A DNA stretch of 6,065 nt from Escherichia phage NC28. The notes below the pieces were generated by a model. It was not told where the DNA came from, ran no database searches, and saw only the letters and a list, made by a program, of their open reading frames with translations. The stretch's first letter is position 1, and each line of letters begins with the position of its first letter. The stretch lies in the sequence record NC_007823.1. The stretch is one strand, 5' to 3'. Below, piece after piece: positions 1 through 6,065 of the stretch. The position numbers and the translations under genes were made by a program.

Positions 1-26
1 TTGTTGACTTCTCCCAATCCCTTATG

Positions 27-59
27 AGACTCTTACTTCAACGAATGAAGTAGGAGTCT
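27..59 (+). terminator. Hairpin just downstream of gene H (H stop is at the window end, assuming a circular genome): 13-bp stem (27-39 / 47-59, one G-U pair), 7-nt loop, followed by TCTTTAT. Likely the post-H (TH-like) terminator or mRNA-stabilising hairpin.
   Basis: Read directly: 5' arm AGACTCTTACTTC (27-39), loop AACGAAT (40-46), 3' arm GAAGTAGGAGTCT (47-59). The 3' arm contains AGGAG (52-56), the SD of the ORF starting at 65. The U-tract is weak. Confidence 0.5.
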
Positions 60-64
60 TTATC

Positions 65-433
65 ATGAAGCCCGCTCACCGCTTGACTCATCCGATTCTC
101 GGTTCTTGGTTGTTTAAGTGCCCTGTTTATATCAGTTATGAGCACCTTCATCATGGTCGTCTCATTAAGGTTCGCGCTGTTCGTGATTTATCCCCTCGCC
201 AGCAGCTTATCGCTAACCCTAAAAATTGTTTTGACGTTGTTATTGCTGTGATTGACGTTACTTATTGCTCTGTCACTTATTTTGATTATGAGGCTGAGGA
301 ATATGCCGAGTGTGATTCAGAAACTATGGATAATATCCTTGCTTATGTTAACTCTCCTCACTCCCTTCGCTCTGAGGAGGATTCATCCGTTGATGTTGAC
401 GATATGGCGTGGCTTTATGAAATTGCGGAGTAA
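65..433 (+). CDS. Hypothetical acidic protein (122 aa) in the H-A intergenic region; no recognisable family.
   Basis: ATG at 65 with AGGAG (52-56) 8 nt upstream. T-rich third codon positions match the phage's other genes. C-terminal half is strongly acidic (EEDSSVDVDDMAWLYEIAE tail). Stop TAA at 431-433 lies 3 nt before the next ATG. Confidence 0.5.
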   Translation: MKPAHRLTHPILGSWLFKCPVYISYEHLHHGRLIKVRAVRDLSPRQQLIANPKNCFDVVIAVIDVTYCSVTYFDYEAEEYAECDSETMDNILAYVNSPHSLRSEEDSSVDVDDMAWLYEIAE

Positions 434-436
434 ATC

Positions 437-526
437 ATGGAAACTGTTGTCGGGAAATTTATTGCTTTGGCTGTTGTTGCTCTTATGCTGTATGGAATTG
501 CCCGTTTAATTCGGAGGTTCCCGTGA
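437..526 (+). CDS. Hypothetical small hydrophobic peptide (29 aa, METVVGKFIALAVVALMLYGIARLIRRFP): one predicted transmembrane helix with a basic C-terminus.
   Basis: ATG at 437 with GGAG (427-430) 6 nt upstream. Hand translation gives an uninterrupted hydrophobic stretch then RLIRRFP; stop TGA at 524-526. Too short to appear in the supplied ORF track. Confidence 0.38.
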   Translation: METVVGKFIALAVVALMLYGIARLIRRFP

Positions 527-699
527 AATACTTTAGTCTTGTGGATGAACATTATGCTTATTGCCCTGACACGCGGATTCTGCATATCACTCGCAGTCGT
601 GTTTCTGACCCTCGTTATGAGCGTCGTTTTCTTACTGATGAGGAGCATTTTGAGCTTCTGGATTGGTTGAAAAGCCGTCTGACTTACGTTAATTCTTGA
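523..699 (+). CDS. Hypothetical 58-aa protein with GTG start overlapping the ORF2 stop (GTGA), translation VKYFSLVDEHYAYCPDTRILHITRSRVSDPRYERRFLTDEEHFELLDWLKSRLTYVNS.
   Basis: GGAGG (513-517) lies 5 nt upstream of GTG 523. Open frame to TGA 697-699 verified codon by codon. No in-frame ATG, so the start is uncertain. Confidence 0.33.
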   Translation: MKYFSLVDEHYAYCPDTRILHITRSRVSDPRYERRFLTDEEHFELLDWLKSRLTYVNS

Positions 700-725
700 C
701 AATCTTCTGAAATACCCTCTATATT
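696..725 (+). promoter_or_regulatory. Candidate sigma70 promoter for gene A (PA-like): -35 TTGACA (696-701), -10 TATATT (720-725), 18-nt spacer.
   Basis: Perfect -35 hexamer and a 5/6 -10 read directly, positioned about 35 nt upstream of the A start codon, analogous to phiX174 PA in the H-A intergenic region. The ORF3 stop TGA sits inside the -35 hexamer. Confidence 0.45.
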
Positions 726-755
726 GCCCTCATAGGTTCACTACGAGGGCTTTTT
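726..755 (+). terminator. Terminator-like or leader hairpin: GCCCTC (726-731) / GAGGGC (745-750) stem, 13-nt loop, followed by TTTTT (751-755), immediately before the gene A ATG.
   Basis: Read directly. The 3' arm GAGGG (745-749) is also the likely SD of gene A, 9 nt before ATG 759. Could terminate transcripts coming from the upstream cassette and/or modulate A translation. Confidence 0.4.
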
Positions 756-758
756 CGC

Positions 759-2243
759 ATGGCTACCGAATTGTTTTCTGACGTTGTAAAGGCTACGTGG
801 TCGCATGTCACTGCTAAGCATCCTCATCTTCGTATGGCTGTTCAGGTTGATAACCGTAGCCGTCTTCTTTCTGATTTGGTTTACCAGTTGGAAAAACGCC
901 TTTCCGAAGAGACTCATTTGGATGATGAGACTTATGCCCTTTATGAATCTCAGACTGGCCTTTTGGAAGACCATATGGCACTGGTTCGAAAGTGTGCAGC
1001 CCAACTTGATAATAGTAACACTATAGACCACCGTACCCCGTTGGACCCTGAATGTGTTTTCCTTTTTGAAATGATTTGTCCAGGTGTTCGCTATGGTAAG
1101 GCGCTTAATTCGCTTTGGAGTAAGTATGTCGCTCAATGGCCTGAGAAGTTAATTCGTCAGGAGCTCGACATGGTTAAGCCTTTATCTTTCAAGGATGAGG
1201 TTGCCAAGTACATGGAGAAAATGCAGGAAAAAACACGTAAAAATCGCATGACTCAGAAAGTGATTAATGAGATGCGTATTGCTCACCAAAAAGGCTGGTT
1301 CTTCGTATTTGATACGTTGACACTTGCTGATGACCGTTTGCAGGCGTTTAATGAAAACCCCAATGCTCTTCGTGATTACTTCAGGACTGTTGGTCGAGCT
1401 GTTTTGCGCGCTGAAGGTCGTTCGGTTAAGGATTCCTACAACGACTGCTATCGCTATCTTTGTGTGCCGGAGTTTGGAGGCCAGCACGGCCGTCTTCATT
1501 GGCATGTCGTGCATATGGTGCGGACTCTTCCTTTGGGAAGTCACGACCCTAATTTCGGTCGCAAGGTACGTAATTATCGCCAAATTAACTCGTTCCGTGG
1601 TATGTGGCCTTATGGCTTCACGCAACCGATAGCTGTACGCTATCAACATGATGCTTATTCTCGTAAAGGTTGGTTGTGGCCTGTTGACAAAACAGGAAAA
1701 GCAATGCAGAGTAAGCCGTATCAGGCGGTCGCATGGTATGTGACCAAGTATGTAGCTAAGCAATCTGATCAGCGTCAGAAAGCTATTACCGAGAGACAAA
1801 AAAAATGCAAAAATCCTTTGATGGCAATTTGCTTGAAGAAAGAATTCAGGGTTCGCAGCAGCCGGAAGCTCGGAATGGAGTTACCTTCAATGGTTCACCT
1901 GAGCAACAAGGTCCTTCTGGAACTGAGCAGAATCAGCTTCGATTCCAGCCCGCTCTATCAGATAGTGAAAGAGAACGCCAAAAAGCAATTGAGCTTGAAC
2001 ATCGGCGTAGTGCCTTTGCACGTCATTATGGATGTGCGCCCGCAAGTGAGAAGTATGTTGAAAAATATCCGTCGTTTGATGAAAAAGACACCAGAATTCA
2101 ATTGGCAGAATTCTATCGCTTCAATGACGGTCACCTTAAAAAATGGGGATATTTCTAATGAAGCACGTCAATACATTGTTGATGCAGGAATTACGCCTTT
2201 TGATTTGCGAGCTAAAGCGACTCAAACTTTCGGCGGTAAGTGA
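759..2243 (+). CDS. A: Replication initiation protein A (rolling-circle HUH endonuclease), 494 aa.
   Basis: Long ORF with HUH motif GRLHWHVVH (His codons near 1497-1514) and double-tyrosine motif AWYVTKYVAKQSD (Tyr codons at 1737 and 1749). Central and C-terminal regions align with recalled phiX174 protein A (e.g. GWFxVFDTLTLADDRL, PNALRDYFR, DPNFGRxVRN, WPYG, GWLWPVD). Confidence 0.94.
   Translation: MATELFSDVVKATWSHVTAKHPHLRMAVQVDNRSRLLSDLVYQLEKRLSEETHLDDETYALYESQTGLLEDHMALVRKCAAQLDNSNTIDHRTPLDPECVFLFEMICPGVRYGKALNSLWSKYVAQWPEKLIRQELDMVKPLSFKDEVAKYMEKMQEKTRKNRMTQKVINEMRIAHQKGWFFVFDTLTLADDRLQAFNENPNALRDYFRTVGRAVLRAEGRSVKDSYNDCYRYLCVPEFGGQHGRLHWHVVHMVRTLPLGSHDPNFGRKVRNYRQINSFRGMWPYGFTQPIAVRYQHDAYSRKGWLWPVDKTGKAMQSKPYQAVAWYVTKYVAKQSDQRQKAITERQKKCKNPLMAICLKKEFRVRSSRKLGMELPSMVHLSNKVLLELSRISFDSSPLYQIVKENAKKQLSLNIGVVPLHVIMDVRPQVRSMLKNIRRLMKKTPEFNWQNSIASMTVTLKNGDISNEARQYIVDAGITPFDLRAKATQTFGGK
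1002..1031 (+). other. Viral (+) strand replication origin 30-mer inside gene A; predicted nick between G1008 and A1009.
   Basis: CAACTTGATAATAGTAACACTATAGACCAC matches the recalled phiX174 origin CAACTTGATATTAATAACACTATAGACCAC at 28 of 30 positions; both differences fall in the AT-rich spacer. In frame within A (translated ...QLDNSNTIDHR...). Confidence 0.8.
1212..2243 (+). CDS. A*: Protein A*: in-frame internal restart within gene A, about 343 aa.
   Basis: In-frame ATG at 1212 (MEKMQEKTRKNRMTQ...) preceded by AAGGA/GAGG (1191-1200). It sits at the position equivalent to the phiX174 A* start, about 25 residues before the conserved GWFxVFDTLTLADD. In-frame ATGs at 1221 and 1248 are alternatives. 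Confidence 0.45.
   Translation: MEKMQEKTRKNRMTQKVINEMRIAHQKGWFFVFDTLTLADDRLQAFNENPNALRDYFRTVGRAVLRAEGRSVKDSYNDCYRYLCVPEFGGQHGRLHWHVVHMVRTLPLGSHDPNFGRKVRNYRQINSFRGMWPYGFTQPIAVRYQHDAYSRKGWLWPVDKTGKAMQSKPYQAVAWYVTKYVAKQSDQRQKAITERQKKCKNPLMAICLKKEFRVRSSRKLGMELPSMVHLSNKVLLELSRISFDSSPLYQIVKENAKKQLSLNIGVVPLHVIMDVRPQVRSMLKNIRRLMKKTPEFNWQNSIASMTVTLKNGDISNEARQYIVDAGITPFDLRAKATQTFGGK
1805..2158 (+). CDS. B: Internal scaffolding protein B (117 aa), encoded in an alternative frame inside gene A.
   Basis: ORF in a different frame from A. C-terminus ...DTRIQLAEFYRFNDGHLKKWGYF matches recalled phiX174 B C-terminus (...WRIQPAEFYRFHDAEVNTFGYF). Acidic, Q-rich N-terminal region typical of B. Confidence 0.9.
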   Translation: MQKSFDGNLLEERIQGSQQPEARNGVTFNGSPEQQGPSGTEQNQLRFQPALSDSERERQKAIELEHRRSAFARHYGCAPASEKYVEKYPSFDEKDTRIQLAEFYRFNDGHLKKWGYF

Positions 2244-3057: not shown

Positions 3058-3071
3058 GGGCCTTCGGGCCC
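3058..3071 (+). terminator. J-F intergenic GC hairpin GGGCC-TTCG-GGCCC followed by TTT; terminator-like (TJ) or mRNA-stabilising stem-loop.
   Basis: Perfect 5-bp GC stem with TTCG tetraloop read directly, followed by TTTAAGGA, whose AAGGA (3075-3079) is the SD for F at 3086. Confidence 0.55.
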
Positions 3072-3085
3072 TTTAAGGAAATCCA

Positions 3086-4369
3086 ATGTCAAACGTGCAA
3101 ACTTCCGCAGAACGTATTCCGCATGACCTTTCCCATCTGGTTTTTGATGCTGGCAAGATTGGTCGTTTAAAGGTTGTTTCTTGGACTCCTGTTGTTGCAG
3201 GTGATTCTTTTGAGCTTGATATGATTGGCGCAATTCGCCTTTCTCCGCTTCGTCGTGGTTTGGCTGTTGATAGCCGCGTTGACTTGTTTACTTTCTATGT
3301 TCCTCATCGTCATGTTTATGGTGAGCAATGGATTGATTTTATGAAAGCAGGTGTTGATGCTGCTCCGCTTGCACCTGTTACTTGTTCGCGTGGTTGGGAT
3401 AGCGCCCAGTATTTGGCTACAATTCCGTCCTCTAACCTGAAGGTTCCTAAGTTCCTTCATCAAGGTTATTTGAATATTTATAATAACTATTTTAAAGCTC
3501 CGTGGATGGATGATTTAACTTATGCCAATCCGTCTAATATGGAAGGTGAAGACGTTCGTTTTGGTGTTCGTGCGTGTAACTTGAAAACTATTTGGACTGC
3601 CCCACTTCCGCCGGACACTGAGACTTCTCATTCTATGGAGACTGAGACTAACTCTATTGATATCATGGGCCTTCAGGCCGCTTATGCTCAGCTTCATACT
3701 GAGCAGGAACGTGATTATTTCATGACGCGTTATCGTGATATTGTTAATGAATTTGGTGGTAGTACTTCTTATGATGCGGATAATCGCCCTCTTCTGGTTA
3801 TGCACTCTGAGTTTTGGGCTTCAGGCTATGACGTCGACGGCACCGACCAAAGTTCTCTCGGTCAGTTCTCTGGACGTGTACAGCAGACCTTTAAGCATTC
3901 AGTACCGCGATTCTTCTGCCCTGAGCATGGCACTATGTTCACACTCGCATTGGTCCGCTTCCCGCCGACCCATGAGATGGAGATGCATTACTTAGTTGGC
4001 AAGGAAGATTTAACCTATACTGATTTGGCTTGTGACCCAGCTCTGATGGCCAACCTCCCTCCTCGTGAGGTTAATATGTCTCAGTTCTTCCATTCTGGAA
4101 GTGCTAGTGCTAAGTTTAAGATTGCTGAAGGTCAATGGTATCGTATGCAGCCTGACCGTGTTGCTTTGCCGTATAACTATCTTGATGGTTTTCCGTTCTA
4201 TAGTGCGATTCCATCTGATGATATTAATCATCGTGTTCTGGTTAATACTGATAACTACGATGAGGTTTTCCAGTCTATGCAGCTTGCGCACTGGAATATG
4301 CAGACCAAGTTTAACTGCACCATTTATCGTAATATGCCGACCACTCGCGACTCTATTATGACCTCTTGA
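3086..4369 (+). CDS. F: Major capsid protein F (427 aa).
   Basis: Same length as phiX174 F and extensive identity to the recalled sequence (MSNxQTxAERxPHDLSHL…, FTFYVPHRHVYGEQWI, GYLNIYNNYFKAPWM, WTAPLPP, SIDIMGLQAAYA, SYDADNRPLLVM, ASGYDVDGTDQxSLGQFSGRVQQT, LPTTRDSIMTS). Confidence 0.97.
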   Translation: MSNVQTSAERIPHDLSHLVFDAGKIGRLKVVSWTPVVAGDSFELDMIGAIRLSPLRRGLAVDSRVDLFTFYVPHRHVYGEQWIDFMKAGVDAAPLAPVTCSRGWDSAQYLATIPSSNLKVPKFLHQGYLNIYNNYFKAPWMDDLTYANPSNMEGEDVRFGVRACNLKTIWTAPLPPDTETSHSMETETNSIDIMGLQAAYAQLHTEQERDYFMTRYRDIVNEFGGSTSYDADNRPLLVMHSEFWASGYDVDGTDQSSLGQFSGRVQQTFKHSVPRFFCPEHGTMFTLALVRFPPTHEMEMHYLVGKEDLTYTDLACDPALMANLPPREVNMSQFFHSGSASAKFKIAEGQWYRMQPDRVALPYNYLDGFPFYSAIPSDDINHRVLVNTDNYDEVFQSMQLAHWNMQTKFNCTIYRNMPTTRDSIMTS

Positions 4370-4375
4370 TTATGT

Positions 4376-4389
4376 GGGCCTTCGGGCCC
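4376..4389 (+). terminator. F-G intergenic GC hairpin GGGCC-TTCG-GGCCC, second copy of the J-F hairpin; terminator-like (TF).
   Basis: Identical stem-loop to 3058-3071, with similar flanks (TTATG upstream, C(C)TTTAAGGA downstream); the downstream AAGGA serves as the SD for G. Confidence 0.55.
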
Positions 4390-4406
4390 CTTTAAGGATG
4401 TTGATT

Positions 4407-4952
4407 ATGTTTCAAGTTTATGTATCTAAGCATGTTGCCCCGTTCACTTCTAAGAACCGTGCTTTTTCTATTGCTCCCGCTGCTAATCCGCAGGTTGTTA
4501 ACTCTGGTGAGATTGTTGCAGGTCGTTCTACGTTTCGTATTGCTTCTTCTATTGCTTCCGCTGTTAATGGTAGTGGTTTCGCTTTTGTTCAGATGATGGA
4601 CCCTAACTCTCCTGATTCTCAGCAGGTTTTCTCTGTTGCTGCTTCTCTGTCCTTTAGTGTTGATTCGAATTACATTCCTTGTGTTGTTCGTTTTGAGGAT
4701 AACGCTGCTCAGCCTACTGATTTTGATATTGCGACCGCTGATTTTATTCCGGTTGAGGTTTCTGCTATTTCTCCTCGTGCGCTTAGTGTTCGCGATTGTG
4801 TTACCGTTGATGTTAAGCCTCGCACTCAAGGCAATAATGTTTTTGTTGGTGTTGTTTTCTTTTCTGCTTCTGCTAATGCCGGTAATGTCACTGGTGTCGT
4901 TTCGATGGCTCAGGTTGACCATGAAGTTACAGCTTTGCAGCCGCTTAAATAA
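4407..4952 (+). CDS. G: Major spike protein G (181 aa).
   Basis: ATG 4407 (MFQVYVSKH...) with AAGGA (4394-4398) 8 nt upstream. Start MFQ and motifs CVVRFE, DCVTVDV-PRT-GNNV-VG and C-terminal LQPLK match recalled phiX174 G. The track's 4374 start is a GTG inside the hairpin; the in-frame ATG at 4398 is too close to the SD. Confidence 0.9.
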   Translation: MFQVYVSKHVAPFTSKNRAFSIAPAANPQVVNSGEIVAGRSTFRIASSIASAVNGSGFAFVQMMDPNSPDSQQVFSVAASLSFSVDSNYIPCVVRFEDNAAQPTDFDIATADFIPVEVSAISPRALSVRDCVTVDVKPRTQGNNVFVGVVFFSASANAGNVTGVVSMAQVDHEVTALQPLK

Positions 4953-5087
4953 AAGGCCACCGCACTCCTGGTTAGATGCCTGCCCAGTGTAGGGTGGACC
5001 GAGCCGTACGGAGATACCCGAGAAACTAGGAACGCGGAAGGCGTTAGCCGCCTTCCCTCCTGCTAAGCCCAAAGGAGACTTTCAGCT
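4953..5087 (+). promoter_or_regulatory. 135-nt structured G-H intergenic region; candidate terminator after G and/or complementary (-) strand origin (primase-dependent ssi). Strong hairpin at 5036-5056 (GGAAGGCG-TTAGC-CGCCTTCC); possible imperfect hairpin 4957-4997; palindrome CCGTACGG at 5004-5011.
   Basis: Hairpins read directly. The spacer is far longer than a terminator plus RBS needs, while the F-G spacer is only 37 nt. My recollection is that in G4 the (-) strand origin is in F-G and in alpha3/St-1/phiK it is in G-H. AAGGAG (5072-5077) is the SD for H. Confidence 0.35.
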
Positions 5088-6065
5088 ATGTTAGGTGCCG
5101 TTGTAGGTGGTATTGTTTCAGCCTTAGCTGGTGGAGCAGCTTCTAAGCTATTTGGTGGCAAGCCTGCCGCTCAAGCCGCCACTGAGTCCTCTGGCCTTTC
5201 TAATGGTCAAGGTGTTATTGGTATGGACCAAGATGCTGGTATTCAGTCAGCTATTCAGGGTTCGAATGTTCCAAATGGTCAGATTCCTGCCCCTACCCAG
5301 ACTGGTGGCGTTATGTCTGACGCTAAAAATATGATTAAGAATGCTGGTAAAGATTTGCTTGATGGTGTTATGACCGCTGGAAGTGACCGCATTAAGCAGG
5401 CATTGGTTGATAAATTGAGTGGTAATAATGCAAAACGACAAGGACAAGCAACCCGTGATTACTTGGCTTCGGCCTTCCCTGAGCTCAACCCGTGGGAACG
5501 TTCTGGAGCTGGTGCTTCCGGTGCCGGATTGGAATCTTCCGGTCAGGACCAACAAAAAGAGTTGATGCGTATGCAGCTGGATAACCAGAAAGATATTGCA
5601 AAGATGCAGATGGATAACAATTTGCAGATTGCTGGTATTCAGTCCGCTACATCTCGTCAGAATACTAAGGACACTGTTTATGCTCAGAATGAAATGCTTC
5701 AGTACAATCAGCGTGAGTCGCAGGCACGCGTTGAATCTATCCTCGCCAACACTAACCTTACGGATAAGCAGGCTACCCATGAAATCATGAGAATGGCTCT
5801 TACCCGTGCTCAGGAAACTGGTCAGCATTTGACTAACTCTCAGATTATGGCATTGGAGAAAAAGGTTTATGCAGAAATCGGAAAAATTAATCAAGATACT
5901 CAAAACGCTCGCTATGGTAGTTCTCAGGTTACTGCTGCGGCGAAAGATGTTACGAATATGATTACTGATGCCACCTCTGGTGCTGCTGATTGGGTTTCCC
6001 AGCAATGGAATTCCCTCTTTAAGGATGGTAAGTCTAATGGTATTCCCCTCAATACCAGAAAATAA
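5088..6065 (+). CDS. H: Minor spike / DNA pilot protein H (325 aa).
   Basis: AAGGAG (5072-5077) 10 nt before ATG 5088. Glycine-rich N-terminus (MLGAVVGGIVSALAGGAASKLFGG), then GIQSAIQGSNVPN, TRDYLAxAFPELNxWER, QKELxxMQLDNQK, IAGIQSATSRQNTKDxVYAQNEML, ENTNL, QNxRYGSS; C-terminal ...FKDGKSNGI...RK. All match recalled phiX174 H. Stop TAA is the last 3 nt of the window. Confidence 0.95.
   Translation: MLGAVVGGIVSALAGGAASKLFGGKPAAQAATESSGLSNGQGVIGMDQDAGIQSAIQGSNVPNGQIPAPTQTGGVMSDAKNMIKNAGKDLLDGVMTAGSDRIKQALVDKLSGNNAKRQGQATRDYLASAFPELNPWERSGAGASGAGLESSGQDQQKELMRMQLDNQKDIAKMQMDNNLQIAGIQSATSRQNTKDTVYAQNEMLQYNQRESQARVESILANTNLTDKQATHEIMRMALTRAQETGQHLTNSQIMALEKKVYAEIGKINQDTQNARYGSSQVTAAAKDVTNMITDATSGAADWVSQQWNSLFKDGKSNGIPLNTRK

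What the first reader, a model, noticed from the sequence alone, without database searches (positions are those of the whole stretch)
696..758. PA-like promoter followed by a T5-tailed hairpin that contains the gene A Shine-Dalgarno
TTGACA-18 nt-TATATT gives a predicted transcription start around 732. The hairpin GCCCTC/GAGGGC (726-750) plus TTTTT (751-755) ends 4 nt before the A start, and its 3' arm GAGGG is A's SD. Transcripts started at PA would lack the 5' arm, leaving the SD free. Read-through transcripts from upstream would form the hairpin, which would terminate them and/or mask the SD. This could insulate A expression from upstream transcription.
Basis: partly seen in the sequence, partly recalled or inferred. 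Interest (0 to 1): 0.45.

Follow-up and report, generated by a model that had tools for sequence, protein, structure and literature searches.

The report
Gene A promoter overlapping terminator hairpin
This is the alpha3-type phage's copy of the known phiX174 pA–TH element, where the gene A promoter sits against a terminator hairpin that also holds gene A's ribosome-binding site; it is real and conserved, but ordinary for this phage family.

Summary
The promoter is the only site in the genome matching at least 10 of 12 consensus positions. The hairpin folds far better than shuffled sequence (z = -4.2).

The same layout occurs upstream of gene A in phiX174, G4-like phages, a divergent metagenomic microvirus and 12 of 13 alpha3-like genomes. 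In each, the -10 hexamer abuts (one base away in L034) a 6-nt 5' arm, and the 3' arm carries the Shine-Dalgarno sequence, followed by a T-run and the ATG. The six outer pairs are kept in all 13 distinct sequences, two of them through compensatory changes.

In phiX174 this is the published pA–TH overlap. The start site is annotated at the first base after the 5' arm, and the element removes about 70% of incoming transcription. Ribosome-site masking is supported only by folding. NC35 lacks the -10 and 5' arm, and phiX174 tolerates most 5'-arm mutations.

The parts
696..701 (+). -35 hexamer TTGACA of the gene A promoter (pA orthologue). Its TGA (697-699) is also the stop codon of the upstream 58-aa ORF 523-699.
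   Evidence: 6/6 match. Invariant in 12 of 13 alpha3-like genomes; phiK has TTGGCA. Same hexamer as phiX174 pA at 3927-3932.
702..719 (+). 18-nt promoter spacer
   Evidence: Read from the sequence. The length is constant in the alpha3-likes that keep the element. phiX174 has 17 nt and G4 has 18.
720..725 (+). -10 hexamer TATATT, directly abutting the hairpin's 5' arm
   Evidence: 5/6 match with A2 and T6 present. Conserved as TATATT, or TATAGT in ID32, among alpha3-likes. The -10 also abuts the arm in phiX174 and G4-like phages.
726..731 (+). 5' arm GCCCTC of the terminator hairpin; it is also the discriminator region of the promoter
   Evidence: All six outer pairs are standard pairs in 13/13 distinct sequences.
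732..732 (+). Predicted transcription start (an A, 7 nt after the -10), the first base after the 5' arm
   Evidence: Inference from promoter geometry and from the positionally equivalent annotated start at phiX174 3962. Not measured here.
733..743 (+). Inner 3-bp stem TAG/CTA with apical loop GTTCA
   Evidence: MFE structure. The T-A pair is replaced by A-T in ID32 and L017.
745..750 (+). 3' arm GAGGGC; GAGG (745-748) is the gene A Shine-Dalgarno sequence
   Evidence: In phiX174 the equivalent GGAGG is the mutation-sensitive RBS of gene A: the preprint attributes 63% (17/27) of detrimental mutations to the 3' stem and 13% (3/23) to the 5' stem.
751..755 (+). T5 tract (U-tract of the intrinsic terminator)
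   Evidence: T4-T6 in all alpha3-likes and T6 in phiX174.
759..2243 (+). Gene A (replication initiator), 494 aa
   Evidence: ORF list. Identical coordinates are annotated in alpha3 X60322 and WA13. 43-44% identical to the phiX174 and G4 A proteins.

Best explanation
The element is the alpha3-clade orthologue of the phiX174 pA–TH composite.

A host sigma-70 promoter (TTGACA-18-TATATT) is packed against a Rho-independent terminator, so that the 6-nt 5' arm of the terminator stem occupies the positions between the -10 and +1.

RNA polymerases arriving from upstream (from the late genes through H and the two small ORFs at 65-433 and 523-699) transcribe both arms. The GC-rich hairpin followed by U5 forms, and most of these polymerases terminate at about 751-758. 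The hairpin would also cap and stabilise those 3' ends.

Polymerases that initiate at the promoter start at about A732, just past the 5' arm. Their RNA cannot form the terminator, so they read into gene A.

Because the 3' arm is gene A's Shine-Dalgarno sequence, the few upstream transcripts that read through carry it locked in the stem. Gene A would then be translated mainly from its own weak, short-lived promoter transcripts, keeping A and A* low and uncoupled from late transcription.

Shown here: the sequence anatomy, its non-random stability, its conservation and covariation, and positional identity with phiX174.
Shown in phiX174 by others: the start site, the net loss of about 70% of transcription across the element, and the RBS in the 3' stem.
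Inferred: the start at 732, termination in this phage, and translational masking.
For: Anatomy and statistics.

Identity of the genome and of gene A.

Same layout in phiX174, G4, three further G4-like or divergent contigs and 12/13 alpha3-likes.

Covariation: 90.8% of cells are paired against 36-57% when the 3' partner is slid. The outer six pairs are 100% paired. C-G<->U-A and U-A<->C-G double changes separate the GCCCTC/GAGGGC type from the GCCTCC/GGAGGC type. U.G intermediates occur in ID32, L017 and ID62.

phiX174: TSS annotated at 3962, the first loop base. Logel & Jaschke describe the pA-TH overlap, TH blocking about 70% of current, and a net 0.29-fold change across the element. TH has the most stable hairpin score of the four terminators, and pA mRNA is low because it is unstable. 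The RBS GGAGG lies in the 3' stem and is mutation-sensitive.

SD accessibility: 0.001 against 0.18 in the window, and 0.0013 against 0.19 in phiX174.
Against: There are no transcript data for any alpha3-like phage.

The 18-nt spacer and the GC-rich discriminator predict a weak promoter.

The SD of the 732-started RNA is only partly open. It ranges from 0.02 to 0.50 depending on the 3' end chosen, with a competing pairing to CATCCTC near 820.

In the phiX174 saturation mutagenesis preprint, mutational sensitivity is asymmetric: 13% (3/23) for the 5' stem against 63% (17/27) for the 3' stem. The hairpin as such therefore contributes little to laboratory fitness.

NC35, a wild isolate, has a 29-nt deletion that removes the spacer, the -10 and the 5' arm, with no replacement hairpin.

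Covariation rests on few independent events, essentially one clade split plus three wobble changes.
Confidence: 0.8

Rival explanations
1. Promoter and terminator only. The overlap with the Shine-Dalgarno sequence is a by-product of genome compaction, and SD masking has no regulatory consequence. Gene A dosage would be set by termination efficiency, promoter strength and mRNA decay alone.
For: In the phiX174 preprint, 5'-stem mutations are far less often detrimental than 3'-stem (RBS) mutations, 13% against 63%. NC35 lives without the 5' arm. After about 70% termination on top of three earlier leaky terminators, little read-through RNA is left to mask. pA mRNA abundance is ascribed to instability.
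Against: The SD sits inside the stem in every genus examined. When the SD-bearing arm changed (GGAGGC to GAGGGC), the 5' arm changed with it. Folding predicts a difference of about 100-fold or more in SD exposure. The two ideas are not exclusive.
Confidence: 0.35
2. The hairpin acts mainly on the single-stranded viral DNA, not on RNA. It would be part of the H-A 'incompatibility/reduction' sequence, which titrates a limiting host factor needed for complementary-strand synthesis.
For: Brown et al. [quoted passage not shown] They also report parallel substitutions there in chemostats. The hairpin is also non-random with DNA parameters (-7.2 kcal/mol, z = -3.5).
Against: The adjacent T-run, the SD in the 3' arm and the fixed register with the -10 are RNA-level features conserved with the hairpin. 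Transcription drops across the phiX174 pA-TH element. NC35 lacks the stem. I could not read the original incompatibility papers, so the exact mapped site is unverified.
Confidence: 0.15
3. A leader attenuator or riboswitch. Transcription would start upstream of the whole hairpin at the same promoter, and a regulated terminator/antiterminator choice would control gene A.
For: A terminator-like hairpin sits between a promoter and its gene, which superficially resembles an attenuator.
Against: The -10 hexamer abuts the 5' arm, so a start upstream of the arm is geometrically implausible. The phiX174 start is annotated at the first loop base. No alternative antiterminator pairing appears in the folds. 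There is no Rfam family match anywhere in the window.
Confidence: 0.03
4. Chance co-occurrence of a consensus-like promoter and a hairpin, with no function.
For: Consensus scans find promoter-like and terminator-like sites at background rates overall: 8 found against 8.8 expected, and 7 against 5.8.
Against: An 11/12 match is expected 0.116 times per genome. The hairpin has z = -4.2. The whole arrangement is conserved in register across genera whose A proteins are only 43-45% identical.
Confidence: 0.01

Closest known systems
phiX174 pA promoter / TH terminator composite element (H-A intergenic region, nt 3927-3980)
   Same: The order and register are the same: TTGACA, a 17-18 nt spacer, a -10 abutting a 6-nt GC-rich 5' arm, the start at the first base after the arm, a 3' arm containing the gene A Shine-Dalgarno sequence, a T-run, then the ATG. 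Hairpin stability is similar, -11.6 against -13.5 kcal/mol. The predicted contrast in SD accessibility is the same.
   Different: The arms are GCCCTC/GAGGGC rather than GCCTCC/GGAGGC, which swaps two base pairs. There is an extra 3-bp inner stem. The -10 is better (TATATT against TTTCAT) but the spacer is 18 nt. Three extra bases (CGC) lie between the T-run and the ATG. The element lies 696 nt downstream of the gene H stop, after two conserved small ORFs, rather than 10 nt after H.
G4 and G4-like (Gequatrovirus) H-A junction
   Same: TTGACT-18-TAATAT abuts GCCTCC...GGAGGC, followed by TTTTC and the ATG. The layout is the same.
   Different: The loop is 8 nt with no inner stem, and the T-run is shorter or interrupted.
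Promoter-coupled terminators (Fletcher et al. 2026 preprint, 10.64898/2026.08.19.745784)
   Same: A terminator and the promoter of the next unit share the same few tens of base pairs and can influence each other.
   Different: There, the stem-loop DNA serves as the -35, the T-tract as spacer, and the -10 lies downstream, so the termination site is about 10 bp upstream of the start. Here the promoter lies upstream of the hairpin, the start is inside it, and the termination site is about 20 nt downstream of the start.
SD-sequestering hairpins (translational masking in mRNA leaders)
   Same: The Shine-Dalgarno sequence forms one arm of a stable stem.
   Different: Opening is not brought about by a ligand, temperature or an upstream ribosome. 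It depends on which promoter made the RNA, that is, whether the 5' arm is present at all.

Membership tests
Sigma-70 promoter, orthologue of phiX174 pA | -35 and -10 hexamers close to consensus with 16-18 nt spacing | tested here: met
   TTGACA-18-TATATT, 11/12. It is the only site with at least 10/12 in the window. Sites with at least 11/12 are expected 0.116 times per shuffled genome.
Sigma-70 promoter, orthologue of phiX174 pA | Same position relative to gene A and to the hairpin as the mapped phiX174 promoter; conserved in relatives | tested here: met
   The -10 abuts the 5' arm in alpha3-like, phiX174 and G4-like genomes. The -35 is invariant in 12/13 alpha3-likes.
Sigma-70 promoter, orthologue of phiX174 pA | Experimentally mapped transcription start | not testable with these tools
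   A start is annotated only for phiX174, at 3962. No transcript data were found for alpha3-like phages.
Rho-independent (intrinsic) terminator, orthologue of phiX174 TH | GC-rich stem-loop of non-random stability | tested here: met
   6 outer pairs (5 G-C) plus 3 inner pairs; -13.5 kcal/mol; z = -4.24.
Rho-independent (intrinsic) terminator, orthologue of phiX174 TH | U-tract immediately 3' of the stem | tested here: met
   TTTTT at 751-755 directly follows C750. T4-T6 in relatives.
Rho-independent (intrinsic) terminator, orthologue of phiX174 TH | Base pairing maintained in evolution | tested here: met
   the outer pairs are 100% paired in 13 distinct sequences. Four pairs show changes on both sides. 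Few independent events.
Rho-independent (intrinsic) terminator, orthologue of phiX174 TH | Measured termination of upstream transcripts | not testable with these tools
   Measured only in phiX174, about 70%.
SD-masking translational control hairpin | SD lies within a stable stem at a usable distance from the start codon | tested here: met
   GAGG 745-748 is in the 3' arm, 10 nt before the ATG at 759.
SD-masking translational control hairpin | SD accessibility differs between the two RNA forms | tested here: inconclusive
   In silico only. Unpaired probability is 0.001 for read-through RNA against a mean of 0.18 (range 0.02-0.50) for RNA from 732. No translation data.
Transcription attenuator / riboswitch leader | The transcript start lies upstream of the complete terminator hairpin, with an alternative antiterminator structure or a known aptamer | tested here: not met
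   The -10 abuts the 5' arm. The phiX174 start is in the loop. No Rfam match. No alternative structure in the folds.
Promoter-coupled terminator sensu Fletcher et al. 2026 | Terminator stem = -35, T-tract = spacer, -10 downstream; termination site about 8-11 bp upstream of the start | tested here: not met
   The order is reversed here: the promoter is upstream and the start is inside the hairpin.

The most novel reading that the evidence does not exclude
Alpha3-like phages may use this design twice.

A second module lies directly after the gene H stop (window 4-67). It consists of TTGACT/A; an 18-nt spacer carrying the same TATG and TCCCAAT motifs as phiX174 pA; a degenerate -10; a conserved 13-bp hairpin whose 3' arm holds AGGAG; a T-run; and the ATG of a conserved, almost never annotated 122-aa ORF.

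Together with the gene A module, it would bracket a separate small transcription unit (ORF 65-433 plus ORF 523-699) that other Bullavirinae lack.

In that reading each hairpin both ends the upstream unit and lets the next ORF be translated only from RNA started at its own promoter. This would be a general 'promoter-of-origin gate' on translation. NC35's single deletion of the -10 plus 5' arm would be the natural proof that the two halves must be lost together.
Probability: 0.3. Interest if true: 0.45.

Novelty: already known. Interest (0 to 1): 0.18.

Why it matters
It confirms that the pA–TH arrangement is a conserved design of the whole Bullavirinae subfamily rather than a quirk of phiX174. 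In that arrangement the promoter sits against the terminator, the start site lies inside the hairpin, and the ribosome site forms the 3' arm. The conservation supports the idea that gene A (toxic when over-made) is deliberately uncoupled from late transcription.

For annotation, gene A's promoter, terminator and ribosome site can be transferred to alpha3-like genomes, which currently carry no regulatory features.

The by-products may be of more interest than the finding itself: two probable unannotated genes, a second hairpin module, and the NC35 deletion.

Tried and rejected
- Rfam gathering-threshold scan of the whole window: no family.
- Attenuator or riboswitch reading: rejected on geometry.
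- The built-in terminator scan did not list the hairpin. I attribute this to its loop and mismatch rules, not to absence of the structure.
- Using wobble pairs to decide which strand the structure acts on: inconclusive. ID32, L017 and ID62 have U.G on the + strand. However, most alpha3-likes have an A.C mismatch on the + strand that would be G.U on the - strand, and the - strand RNA folds to -17.5. The - strand version has no downstream T-run.
- Deciding whether module 1 or module 2 is the ancestral pA-TH by pairwise alignment against shuffles. All pairs score above shuffles, partly because they share end motifs, so this was not decisive.
- Pfam and PHROGs scans of the two upstream ORFs: no hits.
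- The original incompatibility papers (PMC255664, PMC256038) are not held. Kodaira 1992 on alpha3 was not found, so I cannot say whether this promoter or terminator was explicitly described for alpha3.
- A replacement promoter in NC35: inspection of the sequence showed none convincing.

Full report
**What the window is.** Megablast places the whole 6065-nt window on complete genomes of alpha3-like microviruses (Bullavirinae, Alphatrevirus). It covers WA13 at 100% with 91.7% identity, and WA45, ID62, ID32, NC3, ID21, NC35 and NC29 at 89-92%. It is about 83-85% identical to alpha3, phiK and St-1. The window is linearised, like those records, immediately after the stop codon of gene H. The ORF at 759-2243 (494 aa) has exactly the coordinates of the annotated gene A in alpha3 X60322 and in WA13. 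'Gene A' in the finding is therefore correct.

**Checking the observation.** The sequence reads:
- TTGACA 696-701
- an 18-nt spacer, 702-719
- TATATT 720-725
- GCCCTC 726-731
- A 732
- TAG 733-735
- GTTCA 736-740
- CTA 741-743
- C 744
- GAGGGC 745-750
- TTTTT 751-755
- CGC 756-758
- ATG 759

The promoter scan scores the site 11/12. My own scan shows it is the only site with at least 10/12 on either strand. In 2000 dinucleotide-preserving shuffles, a site with at least 11/12 occurs 0.116 times per genome.

The segment 722-758 folds into the described hairpin at -14.7 kcal/mol, against -5.45 +/- 2.18 for shuffles (z = -4.24, 0/200). The hairpin alone is -13.5. Among stable hairpins (dG <= -8) ending within 2 nt upstream of a TTTT run on the + strand, it was the most stable of the five hits. 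The built-in terminator scan misses it, most likely because of the A.C mismatch between the outer and inner stems.

**Relatives.** I extracted the 80 nt upstream of gene A from reference genomes and from IMG/VR contigs found with an alignment of A proteins. The same order of parts is present in all of these:
- alpha3, WA13, WA45, St-1, ID62, ID32, NC3, ID21, NC29, phiK and Lilleven, plus three metagenomic alpha3-like contigs
- phiX174: TTGACA-17-TTTCAT | GCCTCC AAATCTT GGAGGC TTTTTT ATG
- G4: TTGACT-18-TAATAT | GCCTCC CATCAAAC GGAGGC TTTTC ATG
- two further G4-like contigs
- a divergent 5.2-kb contig, L034 (A protein 44% identical): TAGACA-17-TTGAAT C GCCTCC AATTAT GGAGGC TTTTTT ATG

In every case the -10 hexamer ends 0-1 nt before a 6-nt GC-rich 5' arm, and the 3' arm contains a GAGG or GGAGG ribosome site.

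**Covariation.** The test used 13 distinct sequences (alignment A2; counts).
- The six outer pairs are standard pairs in all sequences.
- 90.8% of all cells are paired, against 36-57% when the 3' partner is slid by 1-3 columns.
- Two outer pairs differ between clades by changes on both sides (C-G to U-A, and U-A to C-G). This is what turns GCCTCC/GGAGGC into GCCCTC/GAGGGC.
- ID32, L017 and ID62 carry U.G intermediates.
- The inner stem shows T-A to A-T.
- These are few independent events, but together with the strict register they show the pairing is maintained.

**What is known about the orthologue.**
- The phiX174 RefSeq record annotates a transcription start at 3962. By my count on the sequence, this is the first loop base, immediately after the 5' arm (3956-3961) and 7 nt after the -10 (3950-3955).
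[quoted passage not shown] They report that TH blocks about 70% of transcriptional current, that the net change across pA-TH is 0.29-fold, and that the element 'resets' the current before gene A.
- Zhao et al. (PMC3335065) give TH the most stable hairpin score of the four terminators, and ascribe low pA transcript levels largely to mRNA instability.
- A 2026 saturation-mutagenesis preprint (10.64898/2026.07.25.740675) places the -35 at 3927-3932 and the -10 at 3950-3955, and the gene A RBS GGAGG at 3969-3973 inside the TH 3' stem. It reports asymmetric sensitivity: 63% (17/27) for the 3' stem against 13% (3/23) for the 5' stem.

**Mechanism in this window.** With TATATT at -12 to -7, +1 falls on A732, the first base after the 5' arm, exactly as in phiX174. 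This is an inference from geometry and orthology, not a measurement.

RNA started there lacks GCCCTC and cannot form the terminator. RNA arriving from upstream contains both arms followed by U5.

Partition-function folding over twenty 3' ends gives the following mean unpaired probabilities for the SD (745-749):
- 0.001 for read-through RNA
- 0.18 (range 0.02-0.50) for RNA from 732

phiX174 gives 0.0013 and 0.19. The SD of the pA-type transcript is therefore much more open than in read-through RNA, but not fully free. One competing pairing involves CATCCTC near 820.

The model is supported. Its first two parts restate established phiX174 biology. The third is plausible but rests on folding only.

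**Evidence that limits the claim.**
- NC35, a wild isolate, carries a 29-nt deletion that removes the spacer, the -10 and the 5' arm. Its 3' arm has drifted to GAGGAC.
- The NC35 region has no significant alternative structure (z = 0.27).
- Together with the tolerance of phiX174 to 5'-stem mutations, this shows the hairpin is not essential.
- The NC35 deletion is also compatible with the model, since losing the promoter is survivable if the terminator and mask are lost at the same stroke. That is an inference.

**Rivals.**
- ssDNA-level role. Brown et al. (PMC3606162) cite van der Avoort 1982/1984 for an H-A intergenic sequence that may titrate a limiting host replication factor. They note parallel substitutions there that also lie in the predicted terminator. 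The hairpin is non-random with DNA parameters too (-7.2 kcal/mol, z = -3.5). I could not read the original papers. This role cannot be excluded, and it could coexist with the RNA-level role.
- Attenuator or riboswitch: rejected on geometry and on the absence of any Rfam match.
- Chance: excluded by the conservation.
- The promoter-coupled terminators recently described in bacteria have the opposite order, with the stem as -35 and the -10 downstream. This element is not of that type.

**Seen in passing.**
- The 758-nt 'intergenic' region between H and A contains two + strand ORFs that look like real genes, 65-433 (122 aa) and 523-699 (58 aa).
- In a 13-genome alignment, ORF 523-699 is intact in all 13 and ORF 65-433 in 11. 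The two exceptions are the alpha3 record X60322 and St-1, each with a 1-nt indel. The re-sequenced alpha3 record DQ085810.2 matches ORF 65-433 in a single piece.
- Variable columns by codon position are 44/33/97 and 14/10/32.
- Both ORFs are confined to 25 alpha3-like records. Nearly all leave them unannotated; Lilleven annotates them as hypothetical proteins and MG945254 carries a 'similar to hypothetical protein' note over ORF 65-433. They have no Pfam or PHROGs match.
- The 1985 alpha3 H-gene record marks ribosome-binding sites that map to genome positions 53-57 and 513-518, just upstream of the two ORF starts.
- Directly after the H stop there is a second module of the same design. It reads TTGACT (TTGACA in the other twelve); an 18-nt spacer sharing TCCCAAT and TATG with phiX174 pA; a degenerate -10 GACTCT; a 13-bp hairpin 28-40/46-58 (20-67 folds to -20.8 kcal/mol, z = -6.0); AGGAG in the 3' arm; a T-run; and the ATG at 65.
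- That hairpin is conserved in all 13 genomes, with A-T, G.T and G-C alternatives at one pair. Whether it includes an active promoter is unknown.

**Verdict.** The second module, the two ORFs and the NC35 deletion are the parts worth a further look.

Noticed in passing
window 65-433 and 523-699 (+ strand): There are two conserved ORFs (122 aa and 58 aa) inside the so-called H-A intergenic region. They are intact in 11/13 and 13/13 alpha3-like genomes. Variation is concentrated at third codon positions (44/33/97 and 14/10/32). They occur only in the 25 alpha3-like records and are unannotated in nearly all of them (Lilleven annotates hypothetical proteins; MG945254 has a note over ORF 65-433). 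No Pfam or PHROGs match. They are probably real, uncharacterised genes.
   Followed up: partly
window 4-67 (+ strand): A second promoter-like/hairpin/SD/T-run/ATG module lies directly after the H stop. It has TTGACT 4-9; an 18-nt spacer with TCCCAAT and TATG, as in phiX174 pA; a weak -10 GACTCT 28-33; and a 13-bp hairpin 28-40/46-58 (20-67 folds to -20.8 kcal/mol, z = -6.0). AGGAG at 52-56 in the 3' arm would be the SD of ORF 65-433. The hairpin is conserved in 13 genomes, with covariation at pair 35:51. It may be the true post-H terminator of alpha3-like phages.
   Followed up: partly
L011 (NC35) about 700-729, equivalent to window 704-732: NC35 has a 29-nt deletion that removes the pA spacer, the -10 and the 5' arm of the hairpin. 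The 3' arm has mutated to GAGGAC, and no replacement hairpin or convincing promoter is present. It is a natural knock-out of the element.
   Followed up: partly
window 697-699: The stop codon TGA of ORF 523-699 is embedded in the -35 hexamer TTGACA. In phiK the hexamer is TTGGCA, which weakens the -35 and also removes that stop.
   Followed up: no
window 3058-3075 and 4376-4390: Nearly identical GC hairpins (GGGCCTTCGGGCCC followed by TTT) lie in the J-F and F-G junctions. They are presumably the TJ and TF terminator equivalents.
   Followed up: no
window 4955-5060 (G-H intergenic): This 135-nt non-coding stretch is predicted to be highly structured (4945-5095 folds to -46.8 kcal/mol). From memory, not tested here, it is the expected place for the primase-dependent complementary-strand origin of alpha3, St-1 and phiK.
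   Followed up: no
L001 (alpha3 X60322) and L003 (St-1), ORF equivalent to window 65-433: Both records have a 1-nt length difference that breaks the 122-aa ORF. The re-sequenced alpha3 record DQ085810.2 matches the ORF in one piece, which suggests a sequencing error at least in X60322.
   Followed up: partly
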